From NCBI RefSeq assembly GCF_002113885.1, contig NW_018480077.1, positions 1,153,930 to 1,217,929 on the forward strand: a stretch of DNA of 64,000 bases, read 5' to 3'. This document shows, one piece after another, positions 12,801 through 18,800 of this stretch (positions are counted from its first letter, which is position 1; every line of letters starts with the position of its first letter). The DNA is from Mizuhopecten yessoensis (lineage: Eukaryota). Position numbers: made by a program.

Positions 12801-15800
12801 GTTACAAAACAATATTGTATACTATTGACCATATTGTTGACCATGGCCACAAACATTTGTGTCAAATAGTGGACCTAGCAGGGTTTACAAGGGGTCCAGA
12901 CACAGGTACTAGCCTTGTCTTTCAATATACCAATAGTTATATTATGGGTGTATTGACAGATGAGGCTAGTACCAGTGGTCTAAAAACACCTTCTGGAATC
13001 TGCAATGCTAAGTACCTTTAATTTATCAGAAGTTTTAAAAAGAATTATCTGAATATCATCCATTTTCCTTCAATTTTCCAAACTGCAGAGGGCTAAATTT
13101 GTTTCCTATACAAAATGAACATTTAATTTGGCAGAAGTATTCCATTAAAATCTTCTTGATCTTACACATGTTCAGTTCACATTTTTTTCCATACAGGAAC
13201 ATGAATCCTGATTGACAGGGGTAAACACTTCACCCTATACACCATTCAGATCAATGTTCATCGGCATGAGGAAGTCGTGCATGGCATATTTCCATGTCCA
13301 TAAGCGTGCTATCCGATTGAATTCATTCCTGTTTCCTGCGTACAGATGCCCAACCGTTGGTTCCATACAAACGTGACAATAAGGGTCCGTTAGTAATGAC
13401 TGAATACTGATCAACACTTTGGAAATTGTCAGAGCTAAACTCCAGTTATGATGTATTGAGTCCAAGCCCACGTCACCATGGCGACTGATGTTCGGATGAA
13501 ATATCTTTGTAATGAACCGTACTTTAGGAGGTCTCATTGGGTAACTGTAATATAAATTTTTTTATCATTATTGAAATATGGTGCCAGCAATAAAAATAAT
13601 ATCTTACATCTTCTTTATAGAACAAGTCATTCAAAGTCACTGGATGATATATTTGTGTAAACCTTCGTCCTCCCAAAAATATTAGATCCCTTCTTTTTAA
13701 ATAACCTCATCTATACCACATACTGTTACTGGTGACATACTTAATTAGTACGACAAATGAAGGACTTGCAGCCCTTTATAAATAAACTATTGATGGACAG
13801 ATTTGAGTTAAAAATCTATTTGGCTTTCATAGTGGATATCATTTTATCAACCAGCCAATGTTTCACGTGTTATTTACAGTATATAAGAAATTTGAAATAA
13901 AATGGGACAAAATACAAAGGGACAAAATGCGAACAAAACACAAAATTTCTCCTAAGTCATTACAAACAATAAGTATGAAAGGTTTTGTTGTCCTACCTTT
14001 GTGGTATCTGTAGGTACAACAAGAATAGACCTCCCTCGTAAGGACTCCCTTGGGGACCAGTGATGGAGGCCTGCCAGTGACAGCAGTGTCGGTCTAGAGG
14101 AGTAGCTTTGATCCCCTCTGGAGGGTCTGACTTTAGAGTCTTCAGTTCACTCCTCAGTCGGCGATGTCGCCAGGAGTTCTCCTCTATCGGTGGTGTACTC
14201 TGGAAAATACATTTGGAAATGTTAATATGACACAATTTTACTGGTCAGTCATTTACGGCATTCATCATCACCATTACGTTATTACTGTCTTATAAATGAA
14301 TGAATCAAAGAAATAAACTTATGTTATAAGGAACAGGTAGATCTAGAATTACTGAAATGAAGAGGTAAACCACTTTTGTAAAATTTTGCTTCTGTTGTAT
14401 GAAGCTGCAATTTCAAATAATGATGCATTAAGATATAAAGAAACAATCAGATTATGACTTTGTAGTCTGTATTACATGTATTTATATTTATTGAAACTAA
14501 TACTTAACTAATCAAATGAATTTTCTATCAAGTTCATAATTCATTTTGATATCATTTTTGAATGCAAGGGAGATAACTGTGTTACCTGTAACATCATGCT
14601 CTCTAAACAGTATTTACAAGGCGAACTCTCCAGTCTGAAAATGAACGGAAAAGAAAGAATTTGGTTAAAAAGTAACACTGTTCTAATATTGGATATTACT
14701 TTCAAGTTAATTGAATTAAACCATCTAATAGATATCTTATATATTACAATGTGAACTGACAGAAGTATGAGTAAACAAAAAAGTCAGACAAAAATATTGT
14801 TCTGACATCATTATAGCACACTTTTTATACGATTTGAGTCATATTTAGGCAATGTCCATGGACTCGTTTTTCACTGTTAATGAAAAGCAGGATCTGAAAA
14901 TTTGTTTCAACCAATCATTTTTGGGGATGGAGAAAGAAGGGTACAAGTGGCATGATCTGGAGGCTAGCAAAAAAACAAAACAAGGTGGAGGAATGTCGTT
15001 AGTGGCCTATGCTCCATCAAGGGACAACAGGATTATGCAAGTAAGCAATCATTTTGGCAGGTTTTTCGTGTATAGCAATATAAGAACCAATTACTTTAGA
15101 CAGACTTGTGAAAAGTAAATATCTATCCATTATCCAAGAAACCAGTATTAATAACCAAGGCAAAAATAATATTAATCAAATATTATTTATTTTACCTTTT
15201 TATATATGCAGACATGACACAGTACATGTTGATATTATTCAACATATATTAAATACAACACTTACAACTTTGTATAAATTGTTTTCCATGTCTTCACTCT
15301 GTACTGTGGGTAAAACAGCGGCCAACGCAGTTTGCAAAATTCTTTCCATTGGGAGTCGGTTGTCTCCCCTTCCAAGATTTGTCTCCATCTTGAACACACC
15401 CGTCCTGCTGTCCACAGGGAAATATCGTCTAGGTATTTAAATACTACTAACAACACTGAAAGACAGATAGAAATTGGTTCAGACAAATATGGTAAACATA
15501 TGGGAATTTTCAAAAAGGCTGATTTTGCTGTCTCTTTTTCACAATGATATAGACAGTTCGCAAAGTGTTACAGTTACAGATTCTATATTATTAAAACTGT
15601 CATGCTACATGATTAAATATGTTCTATGCAATGTTGTTTCATCCAGTGGCAAAAACTGAAGATACCACAGAGTCAAAAATAGCAATGTAAAGGGCATTTT
15701 CATATTTCATCAACCAACTGGTTATAAATCAAAAATCTTTCACTTTCAATTTTCTATTCAGCTCTGATTTTCAATCAACATTGACTGCTTGTGTAAACAA

Positions 15801-18800
15801 ATTATAAATATGAGACTTTGTTCTTAAAAGAATTTCTTTAAAGAAAATAATGACTTGAATTTTTTTCTTTCTAACGAGGCTTTTGTCAAGCGGAATTTCC
15901 AAGTCAAACTCAAGACTCGTTTTGTTTTCAAACTTTCCTATTCTATATTCTATGTATTATTTAAGATTCATAGATGCTTTCATAGTGGATAGCCAACTTA
16001 TAAAAAGTTCACAAAAACCTTTGCATCCATCTGGTTTCTTTTTTCCCATTTCTATACCCATTTACATGCATAAATATTACAGTACATGTAATGTAAATCA
16101 CTATTTGTGTAAAACATTTATTTTGTGAATTGAATTTTAATGAATGACATCTTAAGTACCACAAAAAAAACCAAATATATTTAACCATTACTGAATAGGT
16201 TTGAATAAATCCTACCAGGATTAAAATTCCATGTAAATTAAAATGAAAATGTCTATCTCATGACTGATTATGTGATTTTACAGTTAAAATCAAGAACAGA
16301 TTTGATCAAGTTTATTAGCCAGACCTTCTGGGGGCATGGAATCCACTAAACCTTCAGGTACCAGGTCTTTCTCTCTTGGCATTGTTAGTGAAGAGATTCG
16401 CTCAGTGAGTTTGTCCATTTTATGAGTGACACCAGACTTGACTCTCCTCGTCTCCTGTGGATCCTGACTTCCGTTTGTGTAGAAATCAAATGCTGCTCCA
16501 GGTTCCTCATTCCCTGAATCAGCATCTGAATCATCTTTCTGTTGATTATAAAACAAAACAAATGATTAGATTATGATTAACTCTATTATTTTATGAATAG
16601 TAATGTGTTGAAATACTCAACTTTTTATAACAATTAACACAAAAGATATATCCCATTACTAATCAATCCATGCCTATATATTTGCCATTCCTAAACATGG
16701 ACACAACACATATTTACAATGCAATGATAAGGGCTTTTTCAATGTACAATGCTGATTGGCAATAATGAAGGAATTTATACATTTTTCAAATGATTTTTCA
16801 ATGTGTTTATAATTTTTCATATTTTTTCTCAATATCTTATCAAGAAGAGGAAGTTAGCTAAAAAATATATTGCAAAACTTCTGAATCAATAATTTATGGA
16901 TGATATCTGCCAGAGGCAGTGATAGAAGGTCTAAACTGGGTAGTCCTGTTGTAACATTTCTCAAAAATTATGAACTATATATTTCACCATAAATCCATGT
17001 ACTATTTTTTTTAGGTTAAAGACCAGTCAAATTACAAGGGAATAGCTATATTTTTAACTTAAATTATTGATTATTAACTAAAACACTATAATGTAGTCTA
17101 ATTTACCAAACTGTTTCAATAATCATTTATGAGAATTAATAATGGAATTGGGACTTTCGAATTCTGACCTCGTTGTAAACTTCCTGATCTCCATCTTCTG
17201 AATTGATGTCTGATGTGAACAAGAAGAGATGGCAGGTGCTACACACAGGCTGGCCAAAGTTGGAGCCATAAAATCCATCACATATCATGCATCTTGAGTA
17301 CTGGAAAGATAAAGAGTGAGACATCATTATAAATATTATAGAGGCATGTCCTGTCCATTTTTTTCCCCACCAACCACGTGTATATATATGTTATTTTTTT
17401 ATGATTCCATGCCATTGACTGCTAATTATATAGCCTGGTCCCTAGACCGAGTTTTCCTCATGGTCCAACAGCAGACTTGAGGCATTCTGACAAAAAAGAT
17501 GTCTGGTTATAATTAATTTGGAGGCTCATGACACAAGACAGACATCTAACTTCATATGCCTAAACACCAGACATTATAATATCTGTCTGAATGTCTCAAA
17601 TCTAGTGTTGGAGCCAGAGGAAATTCTGGCTACCTGGTTCCTTACAGTAGAATATAATCATGAGCATAAGTATTAAAGCCATTTTGGTCTCTGTGGAGTA
17701 TAACATATATAGATAGATAGAAGAGTAAAATAGAATCATGATAAGAAGCACTGGATCCAGAACCTGTGTATCAGGATAAACCGGAATCATTTTTTATGCG
17801 GTAGATTCTAACACAAATATGTATGCCTGAAGAAAAATGATGAATTTAAATCAAATGTCGAGACAAATGAGTTGTAGAATCACTCTTATACCTCTATCTT
17901 GAGAAATTCAGAAATATTTAACTTGGAAACACTTCTTCCGGTTTTAGTGTCAGCCATATTGTTTGGGAATTACCTACTGTTGCGCATGGGTCAAAGCAAG
18001 TTCTACTTCCGGAAATCACCGGTGCGTACCAAACAGTAAGTCGGTAAGTAGACATAAGAATATTTGTCTGTCAAGACGACTGTGCCGATAAAACAGTTTT
18101 AGATTTGTAAAATTTTATTGTCCTTTCATTGTTTGAAATGGTGTAAGCTAATAGCAGGTTCAATTGTTGGAACTTACAAAGCTGTCAATAACGCAATGTT
18201 CTTGCGGCATGGCTAGTGAGTTCAGAAAATTGTGTGCGTTTTGGAGGGGGTGGGGGGAGGTTTACTGTAGTTATATTTTGATGAATTTCTGATATTTTTC
18301 CATAACATTCAAAACACTACAAATCCCTGATTCAATCAATAGATATGTTGGTTCTTGATGTAAATACTTGTTTCGTCTGTGAAATGCTAAAAATATATAC
18401 AGATCTTTAATTCAATAGATAATCCACTACAATGTATATGTATTAAGTGAAACTGTTGAATATGTTAAATCGTAGGGAAACAACCTAAAATGTAAATGAT
18501 ATTATATCGTAGAACAACAGCCTAACATTTTTGTGATGTTAAATTGTTTGACACCAACCTAAAATGTAAATATGACAACAACCTAAAATGTATCTGATAA
18601 TGTACCGCCTGCTCATATGACAACAACCTAACGTGTTTATGATGTTGTATCGTTTGACAGCAACCTAAAAATGTTTATGATTGTGTCTGACAACAACCTC
18701 AAACTTATTTTAAATTATGTACATGTATTTAATGACACCAACCTAAAATGTTTATGATGTCGTATTATATGACAACAATTAACCTAAAATTATTTACGAT

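What the first reader, a model, noticed from the sequence alone, without database searches (positions are those of the whole stretch)
13235..17957. Intact Morgue (zinc finger + F-box + pseudo-E2) in a probable mollusc
Seen: seven in-phase exons fuse a C4 finger, an F-box and a UBC fold whose catalytic Cys is Gly (HPNISRHGDVGLD; GGC at 13468-13466), while the HPN motif is kept. Known: this architecture defines Drosophila Morgue, an SCF-associated ubiquitination factor linked to DIAP1 turnover and reaper/grim-induced cell death, reported only in a restricted set of invertebrates. Inference: the partner and function outside arthropods are open questions, and bivalve IAPs are plausible substrates. 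Extra Cys pairs (PCKYC, YCHVC, HCCH) might form a second metal site.
Basis: partly seen in the sequence, partly recalled or inferred. Interest (0 to 1): 0.65.

Follow-up and report, generated by a model that had tools for sequence, protein, structure and literature searches.

The report
Scallop copy of the Morgue gene
This is an intact scallop version of Morgue, a known invertebrate protein that joins a zinc finger, an F-box and a dead ubiquitin-conjugating domain; it is real, but already known from molluscs and present in public protein sets.

Summary
On the minus strand, seven exons (17957-13235) with six GT..AG introns and matching phases give 1164 nt, or 387 codons plus a stop. Searched exon by exon, they give an exact CX2CX12CX2C finger, an F-box with five Trp, and the two halves of one UBC domain (Pfam UQ_con positions 1-55 and 57-139). 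GGC (Gly, 13468-13466) sits where UBE2D2 has its catalytic residue 85, and HPN is kept. The exons tile a 387-aa Argopecten irradians protein end to end, 368 of 384 aligned residues identical. Exon 7 alone retrieves insect proteins that NCBI names 'morgue' or 'modifier of rpr and grim' at 72-77% identity. All seven exons but the first align in order to Drosophila erecta Morgue, whose Gly is residue 421. The gene is therefore a Morgue orthologue. Zhou et al. 2013 already state that Morgue is conserved in Lophotrochozoa, and mollusc models are in public databases, so it is not new. The 'second metal site' idea is partly supported by conservation: the linker CxxC is invariant in 133 of 133 relatives. 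Its geometry could not be tested. Interest is low.

The parts
13235..17957 (-). Whole coding span of the Morgue orthologue (7 exons, 387 codons plus stop)
   Evidence: exon lengths, phases, GT..AG at all six introns; the exons tile P0001 from residue 1 to 387.
17892..17957 (-). Exon 1: start codon and 22 poorly conserved N-terminal residues
   Evidence: 17 of 22 residues identical to P0001. No Pfam family.
17169..17300 (-). Exon 2: C4 zinc finger, CX2CX12CX2C at 17291-17232
   Evidence: The four Cys are present in 120-123 of 133 relatives. The regex is found in 117 of 133. No significant Pfam or PDB sequence match.
16325..16538 (-). Exon 3: acidic, predicted-disordered spacer with the conserved DSGNEEP motif (16520-16500); the F-box starts at its 3' end (MPPE, from 16337)
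   Evidence: D, S and G are present in 127, 125 and 127 of 133 relatives. pLDDT is below 50 for residues 58-69, 71-73, 80-84 and 86-105 of the orthologue model.
15266..15455 (-). Exon 4: F-box core and helical extension carrying the five Trp
   Evidence: Pfam F-box-like 1.6e-6 and F-box 4.7e-5. The pattern WWWWW occurs in 108 of 133 relatives.
14586..14634 (-). Exon 5: linker with the invariant CxxC (Cys codons 14618-14616 and 14609-14607)
   Evidence: Cys at both columns in 133 of 133 and 71 of 71. The 10-residue blocks of the model have mean pLDDT 94 (201-210) and 75 (211-220); the model has a helix at 208-215.
13997..14199 (-). Exon 6: N-terminal half of the UBC/UEV fold (helix 1, strands 1-3), with HCCH at 14088-14077
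   Evidence: UQ_con profile positions 1-55 of 140, E=5e-11. Best PDB matches are UBE2D-type E2s.
13235..13544 (-). Exon 7: C-terminal half of the UBC/UEV fold. HPN at 13498-13490, Gly (GGC) at 13468-13466 in place of the catalytic Cys, YCHVC at 13381-13367, stop at 13237-13235
   Evidence: UQ_con profile positions 57-139 of 140, E=2e-24. Aligned to UBE2D2 residues 60-148, with the Gly opposite position 85. Gly in 133 of 133 relatives.

Best explanation
The locus is an intact, single-copy-looking scallop orthologue of Morgue. Shown here: one seven-exon gene encodes, in order, a C4 zinc finger, a disordered acidic spacer, an F-box with a helical extension, a short Cys-bearing linker, and a UBE2D-like UBC fold. 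The catalytic Cys of that fold is Gly, so it cannot carry a ubiquitin thioester. Inferred from the Drosophila work: the F-box binds Skp1, which places the protein in, or next to, an SCF-type ligase. The zinc-finger region and the dead E2 domain hold ubiquitin or K48-linked chains non-covalently. The protein would then work as a ubiquitin-binding adaptor that biases the turnover of partner proteins. In flies the candidate partner is DIAP1 during reaper/grim-induced death. In scallops the partner is unknown.
For: Gene structure and phases. Domains, exon by exon. The Gly lies opposite UBE2D2 position 85 with HPN kept. The exons tile the 387-aa A. irradians protein, 368 of 384 aligned residues identical. 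Exon 4 alone finds 13 proteins among 15 candidates; the 9 of 300 aa or more (8 molluscs, 1 annelid) carry F-box plus UQ_con, and the other 4 (116-187 aa) do not carry both. Exon 7 alone finds 292 proteins at E<=1e-20. By my reading of the table, 114 of the 120 listed rows carry an F-box family beside UQ_con, and 14 are named 'morgue' or 'modifier of rpr and grim'. D. erecta P0296 (491 aa) has its Gly at 421, the number Zhou 2013 gives for fly Morgue. Window exons 2-7 align to it in order (53-79, 92-100, 239-298, 307-314, 335-394, 396-490), and exon 7 scores E=1.8e-45, 59 of 95 identical. Exon 7 scores 160-227 bits against Morgue-type proteins but 97 bits against the best canonical E2 in the PDB. 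The active-site Gly is present in 133 of 133 relatives. An AlphaFold2 model of the orthologue P0001 has mean pLDDT 82.8 and pTM 0.80. Its C-terminal domain superposes on UbcH5 at TM 0.94-0.97 and rmsd about 1.0 A. [quoted passage not shown]
Against: There is no transcript or protein evidence for this locus. No binding was tested here. In flies, deleting any single domain or replacing Gly421 did not abolish the over-expression phenotypes, and the authors state that direct action on DIAP1 ubiquitination is not established. Several E2 surface positions differ from UBE2D (the roles of these positions are recalled, not tested). The F62 position, which contacts E3s, is Met. The P95 position is Leu. 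The S22 'backside' ubiquitin position is Lys here, Glu or Gln in most relatives, and Ser in Drosophila. Ubiquitin binding through the backside surface may therefore not carry over from fly to scallop.
Confidence: 0.85

Rival explanations
1. Same protein, different mechanism. It does not act as the substrate receptor of an SCF ligase. It is instead a free polyubiquitin receptor or an E2 decoy: the dead UBE2D-like domain occupies RING or other E2-binding sites, or it protects or hands over K48 chains, and Skp1 binding serves only for stability or localisation.
For: In flies, mutants lacking the F-box still enhanced grim/reaper eye death and showed lethality, and the authors themselves raise deubiquitination or chain-binding roles (PMC3787007 passages). 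The UEV is 48-49% identical to UbcH5 and superposes on it at about 1 A rmsd. It keeps HPN and D87 (131 of 133), which fits mimicry of a real E2.
Against: The F-box is as strongly conserved as the UEV: W161 and W174 are invariant, and the LPPE/V-L-L/F/L-D-D columns are at least 90% conserved in 133 relatives. SkpA was the main co-purifying protein in vivo. The F62 position, recalled as key for E3 contact, is Met or Leu in 128 of 133.
Confidence: 0.3
2. An ordinary UBE2D/E-type E2 gene with a sequencing error at the Cys codon, wrongly joined by the reader to an unrelated upstream F-box gene.
For: The best solved relatives of exons 6 and 7 are UBE2D1/2/3. GGC differs from TGC by one base.
Against: Gly is found at this column in 133 of 133 full-length relatives, whereas 55 of the 59 lowest-ranked profile hits (plain E2s) have Cys. 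More than a hundred database proteins from molluscs, annelids, nemerteans, arthropods, a priapulid and hemichordates carry the F-box and UQ_con in one chain. The exon phases fit across all junctions.
Confidence: 0.01
3. A non-expressed or decaying copy (pseudogene) of Morgue.
Against: The reading frame is open through all seven exons and all splice sites are canonical. Exons 4, 5 and 6 are 100% identical in protein to the A. irradians orthologue (62 of 62, 16 of 16 and 67 of 67), while exon 1 has diverged (17 of 22). That is the pattern of purifying selection. No second copy was seen in the window.
Confidence: 0.03

Closest known systems
Drosophila Morgue (modifier of rpr and grim, ubiquitously expressed), compared through D. 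erecta P0296, 491 aa, Gly421
   Same: Same order of parts: finger, DSGN[DE]EP motif, F-box, linker CxxC, UEV. Same CX2CX12CX2C spacing, five Trp, HPN(V/I)SRHGDVG with Gly, and C344. Exon 7 is 62% identical over 95 columns.
   Different: The scallop protein is 104 residues shorter, with shorter spacers. It keeps C256, C257 and C341, which flies have replaced (QNNY and Thr). It has Lys where flies and UBE2D have Ser22. No functional data exist for it.
UBE2D1/2/3 (UbcH5) catalytic E2 enzymes
   Same: Same fold: TM 0.94-0.97 and rmsd about 1.0 A for the orthologue model, 48-49% identity. HPN, D87 and the WS.AL segment are retained.
   Different: Cys85 is Gly, D117 is Val, F62 is Met and P95 is Leu. 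About 225 extra N-terminal residues carry the finger and the F-box. It cannot form a ubiquitin thioester (inference from the missing Cys).
Other UEV proteins (Mms2/Uev1, TSG101)
   Same: A UBC-like fold without the catalytic Cys, known to bind ubiquitin non-covalently (as summarised in PMC3787007).
   Different: Zhou 2013 states that no other UEV has Gly at the active site. Those proteins have no F-box or C4 finger. The best solved relatives of exons 6 and 7 are UBE2D/UBC4-type catalytic E2s. I did not check whether any Mms2, Uev1 or TSG101 chain lies among the matches that were not listed.

Membership tests
Morgue (features as listed in Zhou et al. 2013, PMC3787007) | N-terminal C4 zinc finger with the essentially invariant CX2CX12CX2C spacing | tested here: met
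   Exon 2 reads C-MI-C, then DGFYGSNFGQPV (12 residues), then C-ST-C. The same regex is found in 117 of 133 relatives.
Morgue (features as listed in Zhou et al. 2013, PMC3787007) | Central F-box, typically with five conserved Trp | tested here: met
   Pfam F-box-like 1.6e-6 and F-box 4.7e-5 on exon 4 alone. Exon 4 has five Trp at the columns that are WWWWW in 108 of 133 relatives.
Morgue (features as listed in Zhou et al. 2013, PMC3787007) | C-terminal UEV (UBC fold) with Gly in place of the active-site Cys | tested here: met
   UQ_con matches on exons 6 and 7. The Gly codon 13468-13466 lies opposite UBE2D2 position 85. Gly in 133 of 133 relatives.
Morgue (features as listed in Zhou et al. 2013, PMC3787007) | All three domains in one polypeptide, in that order | tested here: met
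   Phase-compatible exons tile a 387-aa orthologue. This holds at the level of the gene model only, because no transcript was seen. The exons were not joined here.
Morgue (features as listed in Zhou et al. 2013, PMC3787007) | Closer in sequence to named Morgue proteins than to catalytic E2s | tested here: met
   Exon 7 scores 160-227 bits against F-box+UQ_con proteins, including 14 rows named morgue or modifier of rpr and grim. It scores 97 bits against the best PDB E2. It aligns collinearly to Drosophila Morgue.
Morgue (features as listed in Zhou et al. 2013, PMC3787007) | Association with Skp1 (SkpA) and K48-linked polyubiquitin; genetic interaction with reaper/grim and DIAP1 | not testable with these tools
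   Known only for Drosophila. No Skp1, ubiquitin or IAP sequence of this animal was on hand, so no complex prediction was run.
Catalytic E2 (UBE2D/UBC4-5 type) | Active-site Cys that forms the ubiquitin thioester | tested here: not met
   Gly at the aligned position. It is therefore not filed as an E2 enzyme, despite database names such as 'E2 ubiquitin-conjugating enzyme' on orthologues.

The most novel reading that the evidence does not exclude
Morgue's 'dead E2' may be more than a Cys-to-Gly variant. It may carry a second, structural metal site built from residues that are invariant across the family and that no paper I could read mentions. The candidate ligands are the linker CxxC (C207 and C210 in orthologue numbering; window 14618-14607), His307 four residues before the Gly, and Cys344 in the helix2-helix3 loop. 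By alignment, that loop holds the UBE2D D117 position (the nearness of D117 to Cys85 is recalled). C341, C256 and C257 would add to the site in non-dipterans. Such a site would clamp the F-box linker over the former catalytic cleft. It would also explain why the small Gly is obligatory there, even though fly over-expression assays tolerate its replacement.
Probability: 0.2. Interest if true: 0.5.

Novelty: already known. Interest (0 to 1): 0.2.

Why it matters
As a gene, it adds little. Morgue is a described family, it has been reported from Lophotrochozoa, and full-length mollusc models sit in public databases, mostly as 'uncharacterized protein' or misnamed as an E2 enzyme. The practical value is annotation: these mollusc records can be named Morgue, and they should not be counted as active E2s. 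The biochemical role of Morgue was still called unclear in the one paper I could read (2013). I found no open-access paper on it in molluscs (searches found none; one search was uninformative). The UEV and linker are nearly frozen from scallop to annelid. The invariant linker CxxC, His307 and Cys344, and the DSGN[DE]EP motif, give concrete mutagenesis targets for anyone working on the fly protein.

Tried and rejected
1. Zhou et al. 2009 (Mol Biol Evol), the paper on Morgue's distribution, is not held. Three look-ups failed. My statement that it lists Mollusca is recalled. What I saw is only the sentence in PMC3787007 naming Lophotrochozoa, Platyzoa and Ecdysozoa.

2. One search read the alignment columns in the wrong register, because trimmed ends shifted the numbering. 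Its table is void and is replaced.

The domain counts rest on the precomputed Pfam columns, read by eye.

5. The finger exon found nothing usable. One PDB sequence hit at E=3.7 is a multihaem CxxCH protein and is chance. The Atlas recognition score was 2086, below the 2300 mark. Pfam gave only sub-threshold hits.

6. Literature search 35, with any two of six terms, was badly framed and uninformative: none of the 15 listed rows holds 'morgue'. In search 37, both of the two hits are irrelevant. In search 36, the two hits are fly or butterfly papers, seen as listing only.

7. The geometry of the proposed metal site could not be measured, because structure prediction returns no coordinates. The co-occurrence of Cys at 256/257 with Cys341 (104 both, 13 neither, 13 and 3 mixed) is suggestive. 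It is confounded by relatedness, since the losses are largely in flies.

8. No complex prediction was run, because no Skp1, ubiquitin or IAP of this animal was available.

9. The exons were never joined. Every search that used window sequence was made exon by exon. Full-length work used database orthologues instead. The model is therefore of the A. irradians protein, not of the window's own. That protein is identical to the window at 368 of 384 aligned residues, plus the three residues that the split codons encode.

No related genomic loci were fetched, so synteny and intron positions in other species stay unchecked. Supplementary files of PMC3787007 (Figure S1, the mass spectra) were not seen.
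Full report
**Observation**

- The exons are 17957-17892, 17300-17169, 16538-16325, 15455-15266, 14634-14586, 14199-13997 and 13544-13235.
- Each of the six introns begins with GT and ends with AG.
- The phases entering the exons are 0,0,0,1,2,0,2.
- The lengths sum to 1164 nt, which is 387 codons plus the stop TAG at 13237-13235.
- The window has no N and 34% G+C.
- GGC at 13468-13466 is the Gly of HPNISRHGDVGLD.

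I never joined the exons. All searches with window sequence used single exons. Where a full-length protein was needed I used database orthologues and say so.

**Domains, exon by exon**

- Exon 1 (22 aa) and exon 3 (71 aa) match no Pfam family.
- Exon 2 (44 aa) has only sub-threshold hits, but it reads C-x2-C-x12-C-x2-C exactly.
- Exon 4 (62 aa) matches F-box-like (1.6e-6, profile positions 10-36 of 47) and F-box (4.7e-5). The missing first turn of the F-box, MPPE, is the end of exon 3.
- Exon 6 matches UQ_con positions 1-55 of 140 (5e-11), and exon 7 matches positions 57-139 (2e-24). The two exons are therefore adjacent halves of one UBC domain.

Against solved structures, exon 7 aligns to UBE2D2 residues 60-148 (6.6e-27). 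Its Gly lies opposite chain position 85, which is Lys in the C85K conjugate entries. Exon 6 aligns to UBE2D2 residues 4-57. Both exons thus give one offset: orthologue residue = UBE2D2 residue + 226.

**Support for the gene model**

Exon 4 alone, searched against longer proteins, found 13 proteins among 15 candidates.
- The best was a 387-aa 'uncharacterized protein' of the scallop Argopecten irradians (P0001).
- Then came Pinctada, Crassostrea, Mytilus, Potamilus, Ruditapes, Mya and Haliotis, and the annelid Owenia.
- These nine, all of 300 aa or more, carry F-box plus UQ_con in the precomputed Pfam column. The other four (116-187 aa, unnamed) do not carry both.

A per-exon BLASTP against P0001 placed the seven translations at residues 1-22, 23-66, 67-137, 139-200, 202-217, 218-284 and 286-387. 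The identities were 17/22, 41/44, 66/71, 62/62, 16/16, 67/67 and 99/102, or 368 of 384 in all.

The three residues skipped, V138, L201 and S285, are what the split codons G|TG, TT|A and AG|T spell. The window therefore comes from a scallop close to, but not identical with, that record.

**Is it Morgue?**

Zhou et al. 2013 (PMC3787007; I read passages, not the whole text) define Morgue by four features:
- an N-terminal 20-residue C4 finger with an essentially invariant CX2CX12CX2C;
- a central F-box, typically with five conserved Trp;
- a C-terminal UEV with Gly at the active site;
- the remark that no other UEV has Gly there.

All of these are met. Further evidence agrees:
- Exon 7 alone found 292 proteins at E<=1e-20.
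- By my reading of the 120 listed rows, 114 carry an F-box family beside UQ_con. The six without one are P0173, P0179, P0186, P0208, P0027 and P0266.
- Fourteen rows are named 'modifier of rpr and grim, ubiquitously expressed' or 'morgue' by NCBI, at 72-77% identity.
- A search from the fruit-fly relative P0031 (Bactrocera) brought Drosophila proteins. These include P0300 'morgue [Drosophila busckii]' and P0296 (D. erecta, 491 aa).
- P0296 has HPNVSRHGDVG with the Gly at residue 421, the number the paper gives for fly Morgue.
- Window exons 2 to 7 align to P0296 in order. Exon 7 scores 1.8e-45 (59 of 95 identical). Exon 1 finds nothing.

**Breadth of the family**

A profile of eight full-length database orthologues (A1) was run over 1.84 billion representatives.
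- It gave 21,681 hits at E<=0.001 and 574 at E<=1e-30.
- Scores fall from 550 to about 165 bits through Morgue-like proteins and fragments. They then level at about 160 bits for plain E2s matching only profile positions 225-370.
- In the 59 lowest listed hits the active-site column is Cys 55, Ser 2, Gly 1 and Phe 1.
- In 133 full-length family members it is Gly in 133 of 133. Membership required at least 330 aa, Trp at two F-box columns, Pro of HPN and a residue at the active site. Sequences failing these criteria were left out.

This disposes of the 'sequencing error in an ordinary E2' alternative.

**Structure**

AlphaFold2 was run on P0001 with the 133-row alignment A2.
- It gave mean pLDDT 82.8 and pTM 0.80.
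- Residues 58-105 are low (<50), apart from residues 70, 74-79 and 85, and the active-site block 311-320 averages 63.
- The block holding the linker CxxC (201-210) averages 94.
- The C-terminal domain superposes on UbcH5 structures at target TM 0.94-0.97, rmsd about 1.0 A and 48-49% identity.

This is a model of the orthologue, not of the window's own protein.

**Mechanism**

Shown here: the protein has a Skp1-type F-box and a UBE2D-like domain that lacks the thiol, so it cannot be charged with ubiquitin.

Taken from the fly work:
- Both the N-terminal part and the UEV contribute to chain association.
- It binds DIAP1 in vitro and enhances reaper/grim death.

The most likely reading is a ubiquitin-binding F-box adaptor that works in or beside an SCF complex.

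The same paper gives grounds for caution:
- No single domain, nor Gly421, was essential for the over-expression phenotypes.
- Direct action on DIAP1 is unproven.

A receptor or decoy role outside SCF therefore stays a live rival.

Some UBE2D surface positions are changed. The roles of these positions are recalled, not tested.
- The F62 position is Met or Leu in 128 of 133.
- The P95 position is Leu in 125 of 133.
- The D117 position is Val or Ile in 129 of 133.
- The S22 position is Lys in the scallop, Glu or Gln in 109 of 133, and Ser in Drosophila.

Conservation separates the three pairs.
- The linker CxxC is invariant: 133 of 133, and 71 of 71 in a further, mostly dipteran set.
- Cys344 is present in 128 of 133, and Cys341 in 107 of 133 (Thr in flies).
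- The two Cys of HCCH are present in 102 and 105 of 133, and flies have lost them.
- By the UBE2D2 alignment, 341 and 344 flank the D117 position.

A metal site that ties the linker to this loop is thus possible. I could not measure distances, because the structure tool returns no coordinates. The 2013 paper has no occurrence of 'linker', 'CXXC', 'second zinc', 'DSG' or 'degron'. Whether the 2009 paper mentions them I cannot say.

**Novelty**

PMC3787007 states that Morgue is conserved in Lophotrochozoa, Platyzoa and Ecdysozoa. It cites Zhou et al. 2009, which is not held. I recall that the 2009 abstract names Mollusca. Full-length or partial models are in public sets for Argopecten, Pinctada, Crassostrea, Mytilus, Potamilus, Ruditapes, Mya, Dreissena, Haliotis, Littorina, Lottia, Gigantopelta, Patella, Bradybaena, Biomphalaria, Plakobranchus and Elysia.

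The find is therefore correct but already known. The literature searches gave the following:
- Search 5 held 9 papers.
- One search listed 20 of 47; only two deal with Morgue, and both are about flies.
- Both hits of one search are irrelevant.
- Search 52 held one paper, the 2013 one.
- One search was uninformative.

None turned up any work on Morgue in a mollusc in the held library.

**Surroundings**

Of 164 stop-to-stop frames of 62 aa or more, I scanned 114 against Pfam. The 50 left out lie in four kinds of place:
- the B-box and propeller ORFs (4124-5536 and 7440-8457); the two main frames there were scanned;
- the Morgue gene itself (13238-17793);
- tandem-repeat stretches at 22757-23564, 24430-24696, 33845-34431, 35603-35973, 48955-49388 and 53429-53828;
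- the frame at 55958-56179.

Five of the 114 matched a family. All five matched TPR_INTS8, on the plus strand, in roughly ascending profile order. This is an Integrator subunit 8 gene running from about 43820 to beyond 49850.

Upstream in window coordinates lie a 501-aa open frame with a B-box (4124-5629, +) and a 294-aa open frame with weak, sub-threshold matches to beta-propeller families (7576-8460, +). Nothing links these genes functionally to Morgue.

Noticed in passing
window 16520-16500 (exon 3), minus strand: A DSGN[DE]EP motif lies between the finger and the F-box, and it is conserved almost family-wide: D 127, S 125 and G 127 of 133. It is present in Drosophila erecta Morgue at residue 94, inside an otherwise disordered and variable spacer. 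It resembles a beta-TrCP/Slimb DSGxxS degron with an acidic residue in place of the second Ser (resemblance recalled, untested). PMC3787007 does not mention it.
   Followed up: partly
window 14618-14607 (exon 5), 13480-13478 (His) and 13369-13367 (Cys), minus strand: The linker CxxC and His307 are invariant in 133 of 133 relatives, and Cys344 is present in 128 of 133. These are as conserved as the hallmark Gly. They are candidate ligands of a second metal site beside the former active site, but the geometry was not measurable here.
   Followed up: partly
database proteins P0180 (Saccoglossus kowalevskii) and P0182 (Glandiceps talaboti): Two hemichordates, which are deuterostomes, carry F-box plus UQ_con proteins of Morgue length. 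P0180 was checked and has the finger, DSGTEEP, PCRKC and the active-site Gly. The family is therefore not confined to protostomes. Whether Zhou 2009 already noted this I could not check.
   Followed up: partly
database names of orthologues: Many Morgue orthologues are labelled 'E2 ubiquitin-conjugating enzyme', 'SUMO-conjugating enzyme UBC9', 'UBE2O' or 'Ubiquitin-conjugating enzyme E2-17 kDa', although they lack the catalytic Cys. This is a systematic misannotation.
   Followed up: no
window 4124-5629 (+) and 7576-8460 (+): There are two long open frames. One, of 501 aa, has a B-box zinc finger (6.6e-7). The other, of 294 aa, has only weak sub-threshold matches to beta-propeller families. The two resemble each other in their C-terminal parts by eye. 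They are probably members of the large TRIM-like B-box/propeller families of bivalves (recalled).
   Followed up: partly
window about 43820-49850 (+): Five open frames match Pfam TPR_INTS8 in roughly ascending profile order (positions 2-78, 78-143, 146-187, 160-214, 339-376). This is an Integrator complex subunit 8 gene.
   Followed up: partly
window 53713-57131, 33940-35504, 22789-23600 and 29032-29758: Large tandem arrays: a 29-mer in about 121 copies (A+T rich, strong skew), a 38-mer in 41 copies, a 36-mer in 22 copies and a 52-mer in 14 copies. These are satellite-like DNA in the intergenic or intronic space.
   Followed up: no
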